Origin: Syntrophorhabdales bacterium
Lineage (GTDB): Bacteria; Desulfobacterota; Syntrophorhabdia; Syntrophorhabdales; WCHB1-27
Reading direction: 5' to 3'
Assembly: GCA_035541455.1 (NCBI GenBank)
Contig: DATKNH010000013.1
Coordinates: forward strand, 4,780 to 68,779
DNA: 64,000 bases
The first letter of the stretch is position 1, and each line of letters begins with the position of its first letter. The notes under the pieces are model-generated. The model was given only the letters and a program-made list of their open reading frames with translations. It searched no databases and was not told the DNA's origin. Shown in pieces: positions 51,627 through 57,087 of this stretch. The translations under genes were made by a program, and so were the position numbers.

Positions 51627-52313
51627 ATGAAGCAGCATATCATCAACTTCAAAATAGAAAAGCAACCCCACCTGCGGAAAATCGTTTATGAACGGTTGAA
51701 AGATGCAATTCTTACCGGTTCGATTCCGAAAGGTACGAAACTCTACGAATCAAAAATTGCAGAGGAGACGGGCATAAGCCGGACTCCGGTGAGGGAGGCG
51801 CTTCATGCCCTCGAGCGGGAACTGCTCATCACTGCAATCGACAAGGTGGGTTATCAAATAGTCGATGCAGATGTCCAGGACCTTGAAGAGATCTCGGTAC
51901 TAAGAAAAACCGTCGAGACCCTTGCCCTAAAAAAGGCGATTGACAGTATAGGGGAGACTGAGATACGCAGGCTGGAGACGAATCTCAAGCAGGCGGAAAG
52001 AGCTTTGAAAGAGTACAAAGGTGATCTCTTTATCCAGCTGGATGCGGAGTTCCATCAGGTATTATGCTCCCTGAGTCATAGCGAGCGCCTGATAAGGATG
52101 GCAGATGCGCTGCGGAAGGAAATGCACAGATTCAGAAGGCGTACAAAACTGGACCACGAACTGGCTGAGGAATCCCTCAGGTACCACCAGAAAATAGTCA
52201 ATTTCCTGAAACTGAAGGATTATAGAAACGCGAAGAAAGCGCTGAACGACCATATCGATCACGCAAGAAGAAAGACCGAGAAGGAGTTCCTGGGAGGGTT
52301 GAGAGTGCAATGA
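51627..52313 (+). CDS. GntR-family (FCD) transcriptional regulator
   Basis: Start at MKQHIINF. wHTH region KLYESKIAEETGISRTPVREALHALERELLITAIDKVGYQI. Its stop overlaps the next gene start (ATGA). Confidence 0.85.
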   Translation: MKQHIINFKIEKQPHLRKIVYERLKDAILTGSIPKGTKLYESKIAEETGISRTPVREALHALERELLITAIDKVGYQIVDADVQDLEEISVLRKTVETLALKKAIDSIGETEIRRLETNLKQAERALKEYKGDLFIQLDAEFHQVLCSLSHSERLIRMADALRKEMHRFRRRTKLDHELAEESLRYHQKIVNFLKLKDYRNAKKALNDHIDHARRKTEKEFLGGLRVQ

Positions 52314-52867
52314 AAGAGATACGGTTACACGGCAGGGGAGGGCAAGGGGTAGTGATGGGCGCTGAAATGCTGGCATACGCGTTTGTCCTCGAGGGCAAGT
52401 ACGCTTCTTCGTTCCCGACCTTCGGGGCAGAACGCAGAGGAGCGCCTGTGGCGGCTTTTCTTCGCTGCGATGAAAAACCGATAAGGGAGACTCACCAGAT
52501 TTATGATCCCGATTGTATTATGTGCCTGGATCCTTTTATAGGAAGATCGCAAGAGATCTTCAACGGATTGAAAGGGGACGGCATTGCAATTATTAATACC
52601 CCGAAGCTGAAGCTGGAGAAATGGCCTGACGCGCTCAAAATGCTGGGCCTGATTGATGCAACCGCCCTGGCTCTTGATGAGATAGGCAGGGCGATCGTCA
52701 ACACGTGCATGCTCGGCGTGATAGCAAAGGTTACGGGATGGGTAAAGCTGGAATCTGTGATAGCAAGCCTCGACATGAACTTCGAAGGAAAGTTGTTGCA
52801 GAAAAACATAGACCTGGTGAGACGCGGCTACGACAGTGTCGCAATTTCAGTAAGGAGCACCACATGA
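52310..52867 (+). CDS. OFOR gamma subunit; PadE-like (phenylglyoxylate:NAD+ oxidoreductase-type operon)
   Basis: MKEIRLHGRGGQGVVMGAEMLAYAFVLEGKYASSFPTFGAERRGAPV. 185 aa. Confidence 0.85.
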   Translation: MKEIRLHGRGGQGVVMGAEMLAYAFVLEGKYASSFPTFGAERRGAPVAAFLRCDEKPIRETHQIYDPDCIMCLDPFIGRSQEIFNGLKGDGIAIINTPKLKLEKWPDALKMLGLIDATALALDEIGRAIVNTCMLGVIAKVTGWVKLESVIASLDMNFEGKLLQKNIDLVRRGYDSVAISVRSTT

Positions 52868-53130
52868 AATTCATCAGCAAATTTGAAGGACCCTGGTCGA
52901 CACCAAGTGAGCCGCTCGATGTCAAAACAGGGGAATGGAGGTCGCAGAGGCCGGTTACAAGGAGTGAGAAGTGCCGTCAGTGCGGCTGGTGCTTCATCTT
53001 CTGTCCGTGCGGCTGCAGGAAAGAAACAGGACATTTCTTTTCTGCTGATCTCGATTATTGTAAAGGCTGCGGAGTCTGTGCCAGAGTCTGCCCGGCCAGA
53101 GCAATTGCACTGGTGAGGGAGGAAGTCTGA
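52864..53130 (+). CDS. OFOR delta subunit (2x[4Fe-4S] ferredoxin); PadF-like
   Basis: 88 aa from MKFISKF (ATGA overlap with gamma). CRQCGWCFIFCP and CKGCGVCARVCP. Confidence 0.8.
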   Translation: MKFISKFEGPWSTPSEPLDVKTGEWRSQRPVTRSEKCRQCGWCFIFCPCGCRKETGHFFSADLDYCKGCGVCARVCPARAIALVREEV

Positions 53131-54437: not shown

Positions 54438-55715
54438 TTGGAAAAGAAAAAACATGTCATAGTAGGATGCGGCACTGCAGCCCTCTCGGCATTAAAGCGG
54501 ATGAGGCAGAACAACGCCGCAGACGATATTGAAGTGGTGTCGATGGAGCCTCACCTTCCATATTCTCCCACGTCTCTTCCCTACCTCATCTCAGGGAAGA
54601 TACAGGAATCTGAAATTTCCATGGTGACGGAGAGTTTCTTTGACCGGATGCGAGCAGTGTGGGCCAGGGGCAGGGGCAAACGGGTGGAGCGTCTCGATAC
54701 AGGCAAGAGCCAGGTCATTTACGAGTCTGGTGAGCGGGAGGCGTATGATTCCCTCCTGATCGCAACGGGCAGTGAGCCTGTTGTCCCGTCAATCCCGGGC
54801 CTGAAGCAGGAAGAGGCGTTGCAGTTGAGGACCCTGGATCACGCCAGGGCTCTGATAGACAAAATAAAGGGAACCAGGACCGCAATCATTCTCGGCGCCG
54901 GGTTGATCGGTATGCATGTGGCTCAATGCCTGGCTGAAAAGGGAATGAAGGTGAAGGTTGTGGAGATGCAGCCGCGCATTCTGCCCTCCTATTTCGACGC
55001 AGACGCCTCCCCAATGATCCAGCGGGTGCTGGAGCAGCATGGCATAACTTTTTTTGTCAACAAGCAAGTTGCTGAAGTGTACAGCAAGAAAGGCTTCGTC
55101 GGGGTAGCATTGAAAGGGGGAGATGCCCTGGAAGCGGACCTGCTGCTGGTTGCTACGGGCGTAAGGCCGCGGACCTCTCTCGTAAACGGAAGCGGTATAG
55201 AAGTGGACAACGGCATACTGGTCGACCGCCAGATGAGAACAAATGTCAGCAACGTGTTTGCAGCGGGCGACGTCGCAGCAGCCAAAAGCTTTTTTACAGG
55301 GAAGCATGGTCTGAATCCTATTTTGCCCAGCGCGGCCGAGCAGGGCAACGTTGCGGGCAGCAACATGGTGGGTGAGGTCAAGGAGTACGAAGGCTGGCTG
55401 CCGATGAATACCTTCAATTTCTTCGGTCATCGTGCTGTGTCCGTCGGAGAGACGACTCCTGTCGAAGGCGATGAGGTGCTCGCGGAAGCAAATGGAAAAA
55501 AGGAAACATACAGGAAGCTGATCTACAGGCAGGGTAAACTTGTGGGAGCGACCTTCCTCAGTACAGACGTGGATGCCGGTGTGTTTCAGTACCTGGTACG
55601 CAAGCGGGTGGAGATTAGCCAGTACAAAAATTCTCTTCTCGCGTTGCCGAGAGAAACGAGTCTGTGGCTCATGCGTGAAGCGGAACGAAAAGAAACCGTT
55701 TCAATAGAGGACTAG
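54438..55715 (+). CDS. FAD-dependent pyridine-nucleotide oxidoreductase (NADH oxidase / rubredoxin-reductase-like); PadH-like
   Basis: 425 aa with a TTG start after GAGGAGAG. HVIVGCGTAALSAL (FAD), TAIILGAGLIGMHVAQCL (NAD), FAAGDVA. Inserted between the OFOR alpha and beta genes. Confidence 0.75.
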   Translation: MEKKKHVIVGCGTAALSALKRMRQNNAADDIEVVSMEPHLPYSPTSLPYLISGKIQESEISMVTESFFDRMRAVWARGRGKRVERLDTGKSQVIYESGEREAYDSLLIATGSEPVVPSIPGLKQEEALQLRTLDHARALIDKIKGTRTAIILGAGLIGMHVAQCLAEKGMKVKVVEMQPRILPSYFDADASPMIQRVLEQHGITFFVNKQVAEVYSKKGFVGVALKGGDALEADLLLVATGVRPRTSLVNGSGIEVDNGILVDRQMRTNVSNVFAAGDVAAAKSFFTGKHGLNPILPSAAEQGNVAGSNMVGEVKEYEGWLPMNTFNFFGHRAVSVGETTPVEGDEVLAEANGKKETYRKLIYRQGKLVGATFLSTDVDAGVFQYLVRKRVEISQYKNSLLALPRETSLWLMREAERKETVSIED

Positions 55716-55728
55716 AAGAGGGCTGAAC

Positions 55729-57087
55729 ATGAAGAGTTTCTATGACACCTTGAGGATTGAAGAGAATATATGCCCGCCCGATTGCAAGGCGTGCCACACA
55801 CGGTGCACCGAGGTCAAGAAAGAGAAGGGCCAGCAAGGAACCGGCATCCTGGAAGTTCATTTGCCCGAATTGGGTGTCCATACTGCCAATACGTGTAACC
55901 AGTGCTCGGAACCGGCCTGTCTCGATGTCTGTCCCACAGGCGCGATCATAAAGAATCAAGACGATGGAATTGTCCGGATAACGCAAACCAAGTGTCTCGG
56001 GTGCGGCCTGTGCGATCTTGCGTGTCCTTATGGCGGGATCGATTTCGATGCAACCTCGAAACAGGCGTCAAAGTGCGATCTCTGCGAAGGGGAACCGCAG
56101 TGCGTGGAAGCGTGCCCGGTCAAAGCCATTTCTGTTATGAAAGCCCGCTCGGTTGTTAAACATTTTCATGAGGACCCTTTGCTGATGGGGTCATCCTTGT
56201 GTGTAGGTTGCCCGGCAGAAACCACGCTTCGTTTCGTGCTCAGGGTGCTCGGGAAAGATACCTATCTGTTCGGAGCCCCGGGGTGTGCGACCAACGTGAT
56301 TAACGGCATGGGAATACGGACCATGGTTCGTATTCCGAGCCACATGTCGAACATGACAACAGTACCCTCCACCATGACCGGTGTGAAGAGATACCACAGG
56401 AAAATGGGCAGAGATGTGAGGTGTGTTGCGTTCGTCGGAGACGGTTGCGCAACGGACGTGGGATTCCAGCCGCTCTCAGGTGCGGCCGAAAGGAACGAGA
56501 ACATCATCTTCATAACGTACGACAACGAAGGCTACATGAATACCGGTATTCAGAGAAGCAGCACCACGCCCTACGGTGGGTGGACAACGACCACTCCGGC
56601 TATGGGGAAGAGGAAAGGGAAGCGAATGAGTTCCAAGAATGTGCCGCTCATCATGGCGGCGCATGACATCCCTTACGTGGCCACTGCGGTCATTGCCTAC
56701 CCGGAGGACCTTCTCATGAAATTGCAGAAGGCCATGGCCGTCAAAGACGGCATGTCCTACATCCACATATTGAGCCCGTGCATTCTCGGCTGGGGGTACA
56801 GCATATCGCAGTCTCTGGATATACTCAGGGCAGCTGTCGAAACAAACTACTTCCCCTTGTGGGAGTACGAACGGGGAGAGTACCGGATGACTCATGTTGT
56901 TGAGAAGCCGAAACCTATAACCGAATATACCGCACTCTTGAAGAAATTCGCTCATCTGGATAAGGAGGAGCTGGATGAGCTGCAGAAGATTGTCAACAAG
57001 CGCTTTGACCGCATCAGGGCTCTTACGATGATGGAAGGGGCAAAAGACGGAAAAACTAGAGAGGTAAAAACAGCCGGTGGCTTATGA
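55729..57087 (+). CDS. Fusion: N-terminal multi-[4Fe-4S] ferredoxin domain plus OFOR beta (TPP) subunit; PadI-like
   Basis: 452 aa. The N-terminal 150 aa carry CNQCSEPACLDVCP, CLGCGLCDLACP and CDLCEGEPQCVEACP. These are followed by CVGCP...VAFVGDGCATDVGFQPLSGAAERNENIIFITYDNEGYMNTGIQRSSTTP. Confidence 0.8.
   Translation: MKSFYDTLRIEENICPPDCKACHTRCTEVKKEKGQQGTGILEVHLPELGVHTANTCNQCSEPACLDVCPTGAIIKNQDDGIVRITQTKCLGCGLCDLACPYGGIDFDATSKQASKCDLCEGEPQCVEACPVKAISVMKARSVVKHFHEDPLLMGSSLCVGCPAETTLRFVLRVLGKDTYLFGAPGCATNVINGMGIRTMVRIPSHMSNMTTVPSTMTGVKRYHRKMGRDVRCVAFVGDGCATDVGFQPLSGAAERNENIIFITYDNEGYMNTGIQRSSTTPYGGWTTTTPAMGKRKGKRMSSKNVPLIMAAHDIPYVATAVIAYPEDLLMKLQKAMAVKDGMSYIHILSPCILGWGYSISQSLDILRAAVETNYFPLWEYERGEYRMTHVVEKPKPITEYTALLKKFAHLDKEELDELQKIVNKRFDRIRALTMMEGAKDGKTREVKTAGGL

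What the first reader, a model, noticed from the sequence alone, without database searches (positions are those of the whole stretch)
52310..57087. Five-gene PadEFGHI-like 2-oxoacid:NAD+ oxidoreductase operon in this anaerobe
The gene order is gamma (185 aa), delta (88 aa), alpha (401 aa), an FAD/NAD(P) pyridine-nucleotide oxidoreductase (425 aa), and a beta subunit of 452 aa carrying an extra N-terminal multi-[4Fe-4S] ferredoxin domain. These lengths correspond to roughly 20, 10, 44, 47 and 50 kDa. As I recall, phenylglyoxylate:NAD+ oxidoreductase (CoA-benzoylating) of Azoarcus evansii was reported with five subunits of about 50, 48, 43, 24 and 11.5 kDa, containing FAD, TPP and Fe-S. The match in number, sizes and cofactor modules is striking. 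The operon starts with its own GntR regulator (coupled by ATGA) and ends with a DctP receptor. That suggests an arylglyoxylate-type substrate is imported and converted to an aroyl-CoA.
Basis: partly seen in the sequence, partly recalled or inferred. Interest (0 to 1): 0.55.

Follow-up and report, generated by a model that had tools for sequence, protein, structure and literature searches.

The report
Pad-like NAD-linked 2-oxoacid oxidoreductase operon
This is a real seven-gene operon for a five-subunit, NAD-linked 2-oxoacid oxidoreductase built like the known phenylglyoxylate dehydrogenase PadEFGHI; it is a divergent new member of that family in an anaerobic aromatic-compound degrader, not a new kind of system.

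Summary
Genes for gamma (185 aa), delta (88), alpha (401), an FAD/NAD flavoprotein (425) and a beta subunit (452) sit at 52310-57087. The beta carries an N-terminal domain with 16 invariant cysteines. A GntR/FCD regulator precedes them (ATGA overlap) and a TRAP DctP receptor follows.

NCBIfam's PadG, PadH and PadI models are the best named hits for alpha, epsilon and beta, but all five subunits score below the equivalog cut-offs. A cluster that passes all five cut-offs (L001) has the same gene order and is 38-46% identical.

Distance trees place beta and epsilon in Pad-like clades (58% and 71% bootstrap), as a distinct, well-supported anaerobe subclade. A natural PadH-PadI fusion protein exists.

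The substrate is not proven. Supporting an aryl-2-oxoacid:
- The DctP's only close solved homologue is Polaromonas Bpro_4736 (4MNC), which I recall, unverified, as benzoylformate-bound.
- Relatives sit beside aryl-CoA-ligase-like, O-demethylase-like and PadBCD-like genes.
- The host encodes phenylphosphate carboxylase.

Against it, the window has no padBCD or padJ.

JGI already auto-names close homologues "phenylglyoxylate dehydrogenase". Verdict: a new member of a known kind, of modest interest.

The parts
51498..51522 (.). Conserved box 1: near-perfect palindrome TTATTGGGATAC-T-GTACCCCAATAA (core GGATACTGTACCCC). It overlaps the -10 hexamer (TACAGT, 51513-51508) of a TTGACA-17-TACAGT promoter-like site that points leftward to the second OFOR operon. 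Candidate GntR/FCD operator.
   Evidence: The core is invariant in the homologous intergenic regions of L081 and L086. The pattern GGRTACNGTAYCC occurs nowhere else in the 88 fetched loci.
51577..51608 (+). Rightward promoter-like TTGACA (51577-51582), a 17-nt spacer, then TACCCT. Conserved box 2, ATACTGTACCC (51594-51604), overlaps this -10-like hexamer 23 nt before the GntR start. Candidate second operator site.
   Evidence: CTTTTGACA...CAAAAATAC(T/G)GTACCCTAGAT is conserved in all three loci. The 11-mer is expected 0.42 times per window by chance and is found 3 times.
51627..52313 (+). GntR-family regulator with an FCD effector domain (228 aa from ATG 51627). It is the first gene of the operon and is translationally coupled to gamma (ATGA).
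   Evidence: A GntR/FCD gene lies immediately upstream of the five genes in L081, L082, L085, L086 and L089, and on the opposite strand in L084.
52310..52867 (+). Gamma subunit (PadE-like, 185 aa, 20.3 kDa). By analogy it is the domain III equivalent involved in CoA binding.
   Evidence: PF01558, 1.3e-37. (PadE model 198.5 bits, cut-off 300; generic TIGR02175 210 bits). (46% identical to L001 PadE).
52864..53130 (+). Delta subunit (PadF-like, 88 aa, 10.0 kDa, 10 Cys), a 2x[4Fe-4S] ferredoxin.
   Evidence: PorD_Arch 86.6 bits, PadF 70.8 bits against cut-off 150; 43% identical to L001 PadF.
53130..54335 (+). Alpha subunit (PadG-like, 401 aa, 44.4 kDa) with the YPITPQT motif and the substrate-loop arginine (MREQVSPHGV).
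   Evidence: (PadG is the best hit at 414.1 bits, cut-off 700; PorA_Arch scores 379.7). (43% identical to L001 PadG, against 38% to the window's other alpha)..
54438..55715 (+). Epsilon subunit (PadH-like flavoprotein, 425 aa, 46.6 kDa). It has two Rossmann motifs (GCGTAA, GAGLIG...VVE) and only 2 Cys, so no redox-active disulfide. Inferred to pass electrons from the Fe-S chain to NAD+.
   Evidence: (PadH 418.7 bits, cut-off 475; next best NirB 210). (38% identical to L001 PadH). (sister to bona fide PadH, 71% bootstrap). (natural fusion P0242).
55729..57087 (+). Beta subunit (PadI-like, 452 aa, 49.8 kDa). The N-terminal ~140 aa carry four Cys4 groups: C15/19/22/26, C56/59/64/68, C89/92/95/99 and C116/119/125/129. 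The TPP-binding core follows.
   Evidence: (PadI 408.8 bits over the full length, cut-off 700). (all 16 Cys invariant across the window clade, the other fused clusters and bona fide PadI)..
57166..58158 (+). DctP-type TRAP solute-binding protein (330 aa, N-terminal signal-like segment), the last gene of the operon. No DctQM genes lie next to it.
   Evidence: (4MNC/4MNI 177.7 bits, next hit 64 bits). (model pLDDT 90; Foldseek top hit 4MNC at TM 0.84-0.90). DctP follows beta in L081, L085 and L086.

Best explanation
The region is a seven-gene operon: GntR/FCD regulator, gamma, delta, alpha, epsilon, beta and DctP (51627-58158). It encodes a Pad-type five-subunit 2-oxoacid:NAD(P)+ oxidoreductase (CoA-acylating), together with its regulator and a periplasmic TRAP receptor.

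Inferred mechanism, drawn from the known biochemistry of PFOR-type enzymes and of Azoarcus PadEFGHI:
1. A 2-oxoacid is captured by DctP. It is imported through the DctQM encoded in the divergent neighbouring operon.
2. It binds at the alpha/beta interface and is decarboxylated on the thiamine diphosphate of beta.
3. The acyl group is passed to CoA.
4. The two electrons travel through the beta-core cluster, the two delta clusters and the up-to-four clusters of the beta N-terminal domain to the FAD of epsilon, which reduces NAD+.

The most likely substrate is an aryl-2-oxoacid of the phenylglyoxylate or 4-hydroxyphenylglyoxylate type, giving an aroyl-CoA that enters the benzoyl-CoA pathway.

Expression is probably controlled by the GntR/FCD protein binding two conserved ATAC(T/G)GTACCC boxes. 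These boxes overlap the -10 regions of both divergent promoters.

Shown here: gene content, order, domains, the cysteine motifs, homology to Pad proteins, conservation of the module and of the boxes. Inferred: the electron path, NAD+ as acceptor, the substrate and the regulation.
For: Architecture and homology:
- The domains and gene order are identical to a cluster that passes all five NCBIfam Pad equivalog cut-offs (L001).
- Identity is 38-46% over the full length of every subunit.
- PadG, PadH and PadI are the best-scoring named models.
- All 16 N-terminal cysteines of beta are invariant between the window clade and bona fide PadI.
- Among 1.84 billion representatives, only four 50%-identity clusters match beta over its full length, fused N-terminal domain included. 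They are the top four hits, and one of them holds bona fide PadI.
- The beta tree gives the window clade 99% bootstrap and the Pad-like superclade 58%.
- The epsilon tree gives the anaerobe clade 97%, and its union with bona fide PadH 71%.
- P0242 is a natural PadH-PadI fusion.

Substrate:
- The DctP's only strong solved homologue is Polaromonas Bpro_4736, entries 4MNC/4MNI. From memory, that protein was crystallised with benzoyl formate, which is phenylglyoxylate.
- Relatives of the cluster lie next to aromatic-catabolism genes:
  - aryl-acid (DHB-AMP-ligase-like) CoA ligases (L083, L085);
  - xanthine-dehydrogenase-family trios whose large subunit best matches 4-hydroxybenzoyl-CoA reductase alpha (L083, L084, L085);
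  - a corrinoid O-demethylase-like set (L085);
  - BcrAD/BadFG ATPases (L082);
  - a molybdopterin + 4-cluster Fe-S + NrfD trio with PadBCD architecture ending 4 nt upstream of gamma (L088).
- The host encodes phenylphosphate carboxylase beta above cut-off, so it degrades aromatics anaerobically.

Regulation: the two boxes are conserved in L081 and L086 and occur nowhere else in the 88 loci.
Against: - All five subunits score below the NCBIfam Pad equivalog cut-offs: 198.5/300, 70.8/150, 414.1/700, 418.7/475 and 408.8/700.
- The margin of PadG over the generic archaeal PorA model is small (414 against 380 bits).
- Gamma and delta score slightly better against generic POR-family models.
- The sister relationship to bona fide PadI is unresolved, and the superclade bootstrap is only 58%.
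- No padBCD, padJ/paaK or other CoA-ligase gene was found among the window ORFs scanned.
- The window's neighbours (a LarA-like 2-hydroxyacid racemase and a second OFOR) would also fit aliphatic 2-hydroxy/2-oxo acids.
- The 4-hydroxybenzoyl-CoA-reductase-like neighbours of relatives are far below cut-off, and their FAD subunits best match XdhB.
- The ligand of 4MNC could not be verified with the tools. The PDB title is truncated, and literature look-ups failed. Identity to 4MNC is only about 33-40%.
Confidence: 0.6

Rival explanations
1. Same Pad-type five-subunit NAD(P)+-linked architecture, but the physiological substrate is not an arylglyoxylate. It could be an aliphatic 2-oxoacid (pyruvate, 2-oxobutyrate, 2-oxoisovalerate, 2-oxoglutarate) or an arylpyruvate. 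That substrate would be imported as such, or formed from a 2-hydroxyacid via the nearby LarA-like racemase.
For: - All subunits are below the Pad equivalog cut-offs, and PorA_Arch scores nearly as well as PadG.
- The divergent co-regulated operon carries a LarA-family racemase whose best match is malate racemase (275 bits, below cut-off), plus generic POR-like alpha and beta.
- After 4MNC, the next structural neighbours of the DctP bind lactate and alpha-keto acids.
- There is no phenylacetate-pathway gene in the window.
Against: - The nearest named families for alpha, epsilon and beta are Pad.
- The closest solved homologue of the DctP is Bpro_4736, by a wide margin (177.7 against 64 bits).
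- Several relatives are embedded in aromatic-acid catabolic neighbourhoods.
- The host already has a second, separate OFOR next door that could serve aliphatic substrates.
Confidence: 0.3
2. The complex does not simply reduce NAD+. The extra four-cluster domain and the flavoprotein couple 2-oxoacid oxidation to both ferredoxin and NAD(P)+. This could be a bifurcating or confurcating arrangement, or NADH-driven reverse operation suited to a syntroph.
For: - Beta carries unusually many Fe-S sites: 16 extra invariant Cys.
- The lineage looks Syntrophorhabdales-like.
- NuoF/NuoE-like genes lie within 10 kb in L081 and L088.
Against: - The same cysteines and the same epsilon subunit occur in bona fide PadI/PadH of denitrifiers.
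- From my recollection of Hirsch et al. 1998, that enzyme is a plain NAD+ and viologen reductase.
- Epsilon has a single FAD, and no second flavin or additional cluster is evident.
- Reductive carboxylation with NADH alone is thermodynamically unfavourable.
Confidence: 0.07
3. The flavoprotein is an unrelated pyridine-nucleotide oxidoreductase that merely sits inside an ordinary four-subunit ferredoxin-dependent POR/VOR operon.
For: - A 102-nt gap separates alpha from epsilon, and epsilon uses a TTG start.
- Gamma and delta are generic.
Against: - The flavoprotein sits between alpha and beta in every locus examined, across 38-100% identity.
- P0242 is a natural epsilon-beta fusion.
- The PadH model scores 418.7 bits against 210 for the next family.
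- The beta N-terminal Fe-S domain co-occurs with it.
Confidence: 0.03

Closest known systems
Phenylglyoxylate:NAD+ oxidoreductase (CoA-benzoylating), PadEFGHI, EC 1.2.1.58, of Azoarcus evansii / Aromatoleum / Thauera (NCBIfam NF045762-NF045766)
   Same: - Five genes in the same order: gamma, delta, alpha, epsilon, beta.
- Same domain set and near-identical subunit sizes.
- Same beta N-terminal domain with 16 Cys.
- Same type of FAD/NAD flavoprotein lacking a redox disulfide.
- Pad models are the best named matches for alpha, epsilon and beta.
- Beta and epsilon are phylogenetically adjacent to the Pad proteins.
   Different: - Identity is only 38-46%.
- All five subunits fall below the equivalog cut-offs.
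- It forms a separate, well-supported clade found in Syntrophorhabdales- and Desulfobacterota-type metagenome bins.
- The operon is headed by a GntR/FCD regulator and ends with a TRAP receptor, instead of being linked to padBCD and padJ/paaK.
- The substrate is untested.
Archaeal-type four-subunit pyruvate / 2-oxoisovalerate:ferredoxin oxidoreductases (PorABDG, VorABDG)
   Same: The alpha, beta-core, gamma and delta subunits are homologous. They share the TPP and [4Fe-4S] chemistry and the YPITP motif.
   Different: - These enzymes have no flavoprotein subunit and no N-terminal four-cluster domain on beta.
- They use ferredoxin as acceptor.
- The window proteins are below the cut-offs of these models too: 379.7/550 for PorA, 296.4/405 for PorB.
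GltD-like-flavoprotein-linked OFOR encoded divergently in the same window (47080-51461; NF009410-type NAD(P)-binding protein fused to a delta ferredoxin)
   Same: It is also a four-subunit-type OFOR equipped with a built-in pyridine-nucleotide module. It has its own GntR/FCD regulator and 4MNC-like DctPs. It shares the conserved promoter boxes.
   Different: - The flavoprotein family differs (glutamate-synthase small-subunit type with Fer4_20).
- That flavoprotein is fused to delta rather than standing alone.
- Its beta lacks the N-terminal Fe-S domain.
- Its alpha and beta cluster with generic POR/VOR.
TRAP solute-binding protein Bpro_4736 of Polaromonas sp. JS666 (PDB 4MNC, 4MNI)
   Same: It is the only close solved homologue of the operon's DctP: 177.7 bits over the full length, and Foldseek TM 0.84-0.90. 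The carboxylate-binding arginine motif (IRVSP / IRISP) is conserved.
   Different: About 33-40% identity. The ligand I recall for 4MNC (benzoyl formate) was not verifiable with the tools, and the binding-pocket residues were not compared.

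Membership tests
PadEFGHI phenylglyoxylate dehydrogenase (EC 1.2.1.58) | Five co-transcribed genes in the order gamma (PadE), delta (PadF), alpha (PadG), epsilon (PadH), beta (PadI) | tested here: met
   for the window. Searches show the same order in L001, which passes all Pad cut-offs.
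PadEFGHI phenylglyoxylate dehydrogenase (EC 1.2.1.58) | Each subunit scores above the NCBIfam equivalog cut-off (NF045762-NF045766) | tested here: not met
   198.5/300, 70.8/150, 414.1/700, 418.7/475 and 408.8/700. The Pad model is still the top named hit for alpha, epsilon and beta.
PadEFGHI phenylglyoxylate dehydrogenase (EC 1.2.1.58) | Beta subunit carries an N-terminal poly-[4Fe-4S] domain fused to the TPP core | tested here: met
   (16 Cys in four groups, invariant with bona fide PadI). (only four 50%-identity clusters match beta over its full length, fused domain included).
PadEFGHI phenylglyoxylate dehydrogenase (EC 1.2.1.58) | A dedicated FAD/NAD-binding epsilon subunit belonging to the PadH lineage | tested here: met
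   (PadH 418.7 bits against 210 for the next family). (clade with bona fide PadH, 71% NJ bootstrap). (natural fusion with beta).
PadEFGHI phenylglyoxylate dehydrogenase (EC 1.2.1.58) | Alpha and beta group phylogenetically with Pad rather than with POR/VOR/KOR | tested here: inconclusive
   - Beta falls in a Pad-like superclade with only 58% bootstrap, and the sister relation is unresolved.
- For alpha there is only the score ranking (PadG 414 against PorA 380) and the identities (43% to PadG, 37-38% to the window's generic alpha).
- No maximum-likelihood tree was built, and no characterised Azoarcus sequences were available.
PadEFGHI phenylglyoxylate dehydrogenase (EC 1.2.1.58) | Genomic linkage to the anaerobic phenylacetate pathway (padBCD, padJ/paaK) | tested here: not met
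   No molybdopterin oxidoreductase or AMP-binding ligase was found among the window ORFs scanned. A more distant relative, L088, does have a PadBCD-like trio directly upstream.
PadEFGHI phenylglyoxylate dehydrogenase (EC 1.2.1.58) | Catalyses phenylglyoxylate + CoA + NAD+ -> benzoyl-CoA + CO2 + NADH | not testable with these tools
   Requires anaerobic enzyme assays.
Four-subunit POR/VOR (ferredoxin-dependent) | Alpha and beta score above the PorA/PorB/Vor equivalog cut-offs, and no flavoprotein subunit is present | tested here: not met
   PorA_Arch 379.7/550, PorB 296.4/405, NF008818 301.5/405. A flavoprotein gene lies between alpha and beta.
DctP-type TRAP solute-binding protein | PF03480 domain, TRAP_S1 subfamily model above cut-off, SBP fold | tested here: met
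   (PF03480, 123.4 bits). (NF037995, 91.7 bits against cut-off 50). (pLDDT 90; all top Foldseek hits are TRAP SBPs).
GntR family, FadR/FCD subfamily regulator | N-terminal GntR winged helix plus a C-terminal FCD effector domain | tested here: met
   (PF00392 56.1 bits, PF07729 78 bits).

The most novel reading that the evidence does not exclude
The window clade could be a distinct family of NAD+-linked arylglyoxylate oxidoreductases, specific to strictly anaerobic (syntrophic or sulfate-reducing) aromatic degraders. On this reading the cell takes up free arylglyoxylates or mandelate-type acids through a dedicated benzoylformate-type TRAP receptor and converts them directly to aroyl-CoA, with no phenylacetyl-CoA route. 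The enzyme would belong to a two-enzyme regulon: one GntR/FCD operator (ATAC(T/G)GTACCC) would control both this enzyme and a second, GltD-type NAD(P)-linked OFOR. That could supply the phenylglyoxylate-to-benzoyl-CoA step that a proteogenomic study of Desulfococcus multivorans left unassigned (PMC5109826).
Probability: 0.25. Interest if true: 0.5.

Novelty: new member of a known kind. Interest (0 to 1): 0.33.

Why it matters
- **Distribution.** PadEFGHI has been characterised only in denitrifying Betaproteobacteria. This work shows a separate, widespread clade (more than 120 clusters at 90% identity) in Syntrophorhabdales- and Desulfobacterota-type anaerobes. The clade has the same five-subunit design but its own regulator and uptake receptor.
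- **If the substrate is an arylglyoxylate.** It would give strict anaerobes a one-step entry from mandelate-, phenylglycine- or phenylacetate-derived 2-oxoacids into the benzoyl-CoA pathway. It would also offer a candidate for a step left unassigned in a sulfate reducer.
- **Annotation.** Automatic labels of "phenylglyoxylate dehydrogenase" on these proteins go beyond what the curated NCBIfam cut-offs support.

Tried and rejected
- **Genome-collection scan.** It missed the close relatives and any Aromatoleum, Azoarcus or Thauera pad locus. Only L001 proved useful, so I could not compare directly with the characterised A. evansii sequences.
- **Second homologue search.** Searching with L001 PadG returned only its close Burkholderiales-type relatives.
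- **Structure prediction.** Single-sequence AlphaFold of the DctP was unusable (pLDDT 34.7). It was repeated with a 40-sequence alignment.
- **Promoter and terminator scan.** Counts were no higher than in shuffled sequence. The promoter-like sites are quoted only because they coincide with conserved boxes.
- **RNA hairpins.** The alpha-epsilon intercistronic hairpin (z = 0.36) and the hairpin after DctP (z = -1.27) are not significantly more stable than shuffles.
- **4-Hydroxybenzoyl-CoA reductase link.** I considered reading the xanthine-dehydrogenase-family neighbours of relatives as 4-hydroxybenzoyl-CoA reductase. The evidence is too weak: alpha scores 635-656 bits against a cut-off of 994, and the FAD subunits best match XdhB.
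- **PadBCD check.** No PadBCD homologue lies in the L001 fragment, so the PadBCD-like trio in L088 could not be compared with a reference.
- **Subunit masses.** No held paper gives the A. evansii subunit masses.

Full report
**1. The observation**

The ORF list and Pfam scan confirm five + strand genes at exactly the stated coordinates and lengths:
- gamma, 52310-52867 (185 aa, PF01558)
- delta, 52864-53130 (88 aa, Fer4)
- alpha, 53130-54335 (401 aa, POR_N + PFOR_II)
- a flavoprotein, 54438-55715 (425 aa, Pyr_redox_2 + Rubredoxin_C)
- beta, 55729-57087 (452 aa, Fer4_11 at residues 52-136 followed by TPP_enzyme_C)

Calculated masses are 20.3, 10.0, 44.4, 46.6 and 49.8 kDa.

A GntR/FCD regulator precedes gamma. 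Its likely start is ATG 51627, and its stop overlaps the gamma start as ATGA. Gamma/delta overlap by ATGA and delta/alpha by one base. Epsilon starts at a TTG behind an AGAGGAGAG ribosome-binding site, at the same position as the consensus start of its homologues.

A DctP gene (57166-58158) follows beta after 78 nt, with a GGGAGG ribosome-binding site. The transcription unit is therefore most likely 51627-58158, seven genes. This is wider than the coordinates given in the finding.

**2. Comparison with real Pad proteins**

NCBIfam holds equivalog models for PadE, F, G, H and I (NF045762-NF045766). Window scores against their cut-offs are:

| Subunit | Model | Score (bits) | Cut-off |
|---|---|---|---|
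| gamma | PadE | 198.5 | 300 |
| delta | PadF | 70.8 | 150 |
| alpha | PadG | 414.1 | 700 |
| epsilon | PadH | 418.7 | 475 |
| beta | PadI | 408.8 | 700 |

The Pad model is the best of all 18,950 models for three subunits:
- alpha: the next best is PorA_Arch at 379.7 bits.
- epsilon: the next best is NirB at 210 bits.
- beta: the match runs over the full length.

All five nevertheless fall below cut-off.

The genome-collection scan recovered one locus, L001, a Burkholderiales-type bin. Its five genes pass all five cut-offs (331, 160.8, 754.6, 627.5 and 811.4 bits). They lie in the same order, gamma-delta-alpha-epsilon-beta.

The window proteins are 46, 43, 43, 38 and 41% identical to them over their full lengths. 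By comparison they are 36-41% identical to the paralogous subunits of the window's second OFOR operon.

I could not obtain the characterised Azoarcus evansii sequences themselves. A search with L001 PadG returned only its close relatives, some of which NCBI names "NADH-dependent phenylglyoxylate dehydrogenase subunit alpha".

**3. Phylogenetic position**

*Beta.* An exhaustive HMMER search of 1.84 billion 50%-identity representatives with beta found only four clusters that match over the full length, N-terminal Fe-S domain included:
- P0241, the window's own clade
- P0242
- P0243
- P0244, which is 57% identical to L001 PadI and so represents the bona fide PadI clade

These score 369-544 bits. 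Unfused betas score 298 bits or less.

A neighbour-joining tree of the TPP core (86 sequences, 282 columns) gave these bootstrap values:
- window clade (window plus L081-L085): 99%
- window clade plus P0241: 82%
- PadI clade: 100%
- superclade uniting all of these with a few apparently unfused relatives: 58%

The order within the superclade is unresolved. The window's other beta (47080-47985) falls elsewhere, among generic POR/VOR betas.

*Epsilon.* The anaerobe clade has 97% bootstrap. Its union with bona fide PadH (L001, L002) and the N-terminal half of P0242 has 71%, to the exclusion of NirB-like and other flavoproteins.

*Shared features.*
- All 16 cysteines of the beta N-terminal domain fall in four Cys4 groups. 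They are invariant from the window to bona fide PadI.
- P0242 (860 aa) is a natural fusion. Residues 2-388 are PadH-like (41% identical to the window epsilon). Residues 439-853 are PadI-like (44%). This argues that the flavoprotein docks on beta.

The window cluster is a separate lineage from the proteobacterial Pad enzymes.

**4. Distribution and context**

The epsilon search found more than 120 clusters at 44-100% identity. The named ones come from Syntrophorhabdales, Syntrophorhabdaceae, Desulfatiglandales and Desulfobacteraceae bins. JGI already labels many of them "phenylglyoxylate dehydrogenase epsilon subunit".

Neighbourhoods of relatives:

| Locus | Epsilon identity | Neighbourhood |
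|---|---|---|
| L081, L086, L089 | 66%, 69%, 100% | Same as the window: GntR + five genes + DctP. In L081 and L086 the whole divergent second OFOR operon with GntR and DctQM is present too. |
| L085 | 48% | DctQM, an aryl-acid-type CoA ligase, GntR, the five genes, DctPQM, a corrinoid/URO-D/pterin O-demethylase-like set, and a xanthine-dehydrogenase-family trio. |
| L083, L084 | 51%, 60% | Xanthine-dehydrogenase-family trios. L083 also has a DHB-AMP-ligase-like CoA ligase; L084 has 2-hydroxyacid and lactate/malate dehydrogenase-like genes. |
| L082 | 56% | BcrAD/BadFG ATPases. |
| L087 | 50% | Two tandem copies of the cluster and an adjacent UbiD decarboxylase. |
| L088 | 51% | A 910-aa molybdopterin enzyme, a 215-aa four-cluster Fe-S protein and a 299-aa NrfD protein, ending 4 nt before gamma. 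|

The L088 trio has the subunit architecture of phenylacetyl-CoA:acceptor oxidoreductase PadBCD. I could not verify that identity by sequence.

The large subunits of the xanthine-dehydrogenase-family trios best match 4-hydroxybenzoyl-CoA reductase alpha, but far below cut-off, and their FAD subunits look like XdhB. I treat that link as weak.

The window itself encodes phenylphosphate carboxylase beta above cut-off (677.6 against 469 bits), plus delta-like and phenylphosphate-synthase-like genes (1-9804). The host is therefore an anaerobic degrader of aromatic compounds.

**5. The receptor**

The operon's DctP has one outstanding solved homologue. This is 4MNC/4MNI, at 177.7 bits over the full length, with the next hit at 64 bits. 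A confident model (pLDDT 90.2) superposes on it at TM 0.84-0.90. Foldseek identifies the entry as Polaromonas sp. JS666 Bpro_4736, target EFI-510156.

From memory, that structure was deposited with bound benzoyl formate, which is phenylglyoxylate. The title is truncated in the tool output, and I found no held paper that states the ligand, so this point is recalled and not verified. If correct, it is independent support for an arylglyoxylate substrate, though only at about 33-40% identity.

Two further DctPs in the divergent operon (43290-44294 and 42205-43209) are of the same 4MNC type. Only one DctQM pair is present (44365-46185). The three receptors probably share it (inference).

**6. Regulation**

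The 165-bp divergent intergenic region contains two copies of ATACTGTACCC. The expected count is 0.42 per window.
- Box 1 is the centre of a 25-nt palindrome (51498-51522). It overlaps the -10 hexamer of a TTGACA-17-TACAGT site on the minus strand.
- Box 2 (51594-51604) overlaps a TACCCT hexamer 17 nt after a plus-strand TTGACA (51577-51582). It lies 23 nt before the GntR start.

Both boxes and both TTGACA hexamers are conserved in L081 and L086, while the sequence between them is not. The pattern GGRTACNGTAYCC occurs only at these sites among the 88 fetched loci.

I infer a shared operator through which one or both GntR/FCD proteins repress both OFOR operons until an effector binds. The conservation could partly reflect the promoter elements themselves.

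**7. Mechanism and verdict**

The evidence supports a Pad-type five-subunit enzyme. Its parts are assigned as follows:
- TPP-dependent decarboxylation takes place on alpha/beta.
- Acyl transfer to CoA follows.
- Electrons pass through up to seven [4Fe-4S] sites: one in the beta core, two in delta and up to four in the beta N-terminal domain.
- They reach the FAD of epsilon, which then reduces a pyridine nucleotide.

An acidic residue after the second Rossmann motif (VVE, residues 172-174) suggests NAD+ rather than NADP+. That is an inference. NAD+ as acceptor makes the reaction effectively irreversible in the catabolic direction.

My confidence is about 0.9 in the architecture and function class, and about 0.5 that the substrate is a phenylglyoxylate-type aryl-2-oxoacid.

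The main rival is the same machine acting on an aliphatic 2-oxoacid or an arylpyruvate. The sub-threshold scores, the nearby LarA-like racemase and the absence of padBCD/padJ in the window keep that option open.

**8. Novelty**

The enzyme type is known, and close homologues are already auto-annotated with the Pad name. The points not already captured by those annotations:
- a distinct anaerobe clade below the curated cut-offs
- its own GntR + TRAP-receptor operon design
- its conserved pairing and probable co-regulation with a second pyridine-nucleotide-linked OFOR
- a natural epsilon-beta fusion in a related cluster

I rate it a new member of a known kind, of modest interest.

Noticed in passing
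window 47080-51461 (- strand): A second, divergently transcribed OFOR operon. It comprises gamma (50919-51461), a 589-aa GltD-like Fe-S flavoprotein fused to a delta-type ferredoxin (49115-50884; NF009410 551.9 bits, above cut-off 516), alpha (about 47949-49118) and an unextended beta (47080-47985). It is a different solution to linking a 2-oxoacid oxidoreductase to NAD(P). The same divergent pairing is conserved in L081 and L086.
   Followed up: partly
window 37199-46944 (- strand): Downstream of the second OFOR lie a second GntR/FCD (46240-46944), DctQ, DctM, two 4MNC-like DctPs, a LarA-family nickel-pincer racemase homologue (40906-42201; best match malate racemase at 275 bits, below cut-off), a TAXI-type TRAP binding protein, a UbiD-family decarboxylase (38398-39816) and a fourth DctP (37199-38221). 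That fourth DctP's best solved homologues include TRAP SBPs whose PDB titles say "specific for aromatic acid ligands" (5I5P/5IGA); I recall others (4PGN/4NAP) as indole-acid binders. There are three 4MNC-type receptors but only one DctQM.
   Followed up: partly
window 51498-51522 and 51590-51608: Two conserved ATAC(T/G)GTACCC boxes overlap the -10 regions of both divergent promoters. They are invariant in L081 and L086 and absent from all other fetched loci. They are a candidate shared GntR/FCD operator.
   Followed up: yes
window 7-10486 (- strand): A phenol-activation gene set: two HAD/KdsC-like (phenylphosphate carboxylase delta-like) genes, a UbiD protein that passes the phenylphosphate carboxylase beta equivalog cut-off (1249-2667; 677.6 against 469 bits), and PPDK_N and PEP-utilizer proteins resembling phenylphosphate synthase (6778-9804). 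A LysR regulator (2870-3757) is encoded on the + strand within this stretch. The host is an anaerobic phenol/aromatic degrader, probably Syntrophorhabdales-related.
   Followed up: partly
protein P0242 (representative library, 860 aa): A natural fusion of a PadH-like flavoprotein (residues 2-388) with a PadI-like beta subunit (residues 439-853). This is Rosetta-stone evidence that epsilon and beta interact.
   Followed up: partly
L088 3633-7939: A molybdopterin oxidoreductase (910 aa), a four-cluster Fe-S protein (215 aa) and an NrfD membrane protein (299 aa) end 4 nt before a Pad-like gamma gene. This is the subunit architecture of phenylacetyl-CoA:acceptor oxidoreductase PadBCD, in an uncultured anaerobe. 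No reference PadB was available for comparison.
   Followed up: partly
L087 47-12625: Two tandem copies of the Pad-like five-gene cluster, separated by a UbiD decarboxylase and transposase genes and flanked by integrase and IS elements. This points to paralogue expansion and mobility of the cluster.
   Followed up: no
window 58248-58484 (- strand): A 78-aa ORF resembling the C-terminal end of a tyrosine recombinase/integrase lies immediately after the DctP gene. It is probably a remnant. The synteny with L081 and L086 ends at this point.
   Followed up: no
window 13545-20369 (+ strand): A trehalose-synthase-like glycosyltransferase (TreT_GT1), DUF5752 and two alpha-amylase-family proteins (614 and 1016 aa) form a compatible-solute or glycogen-type cluster. 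It is unrelated to the finding.
   Followed up: no
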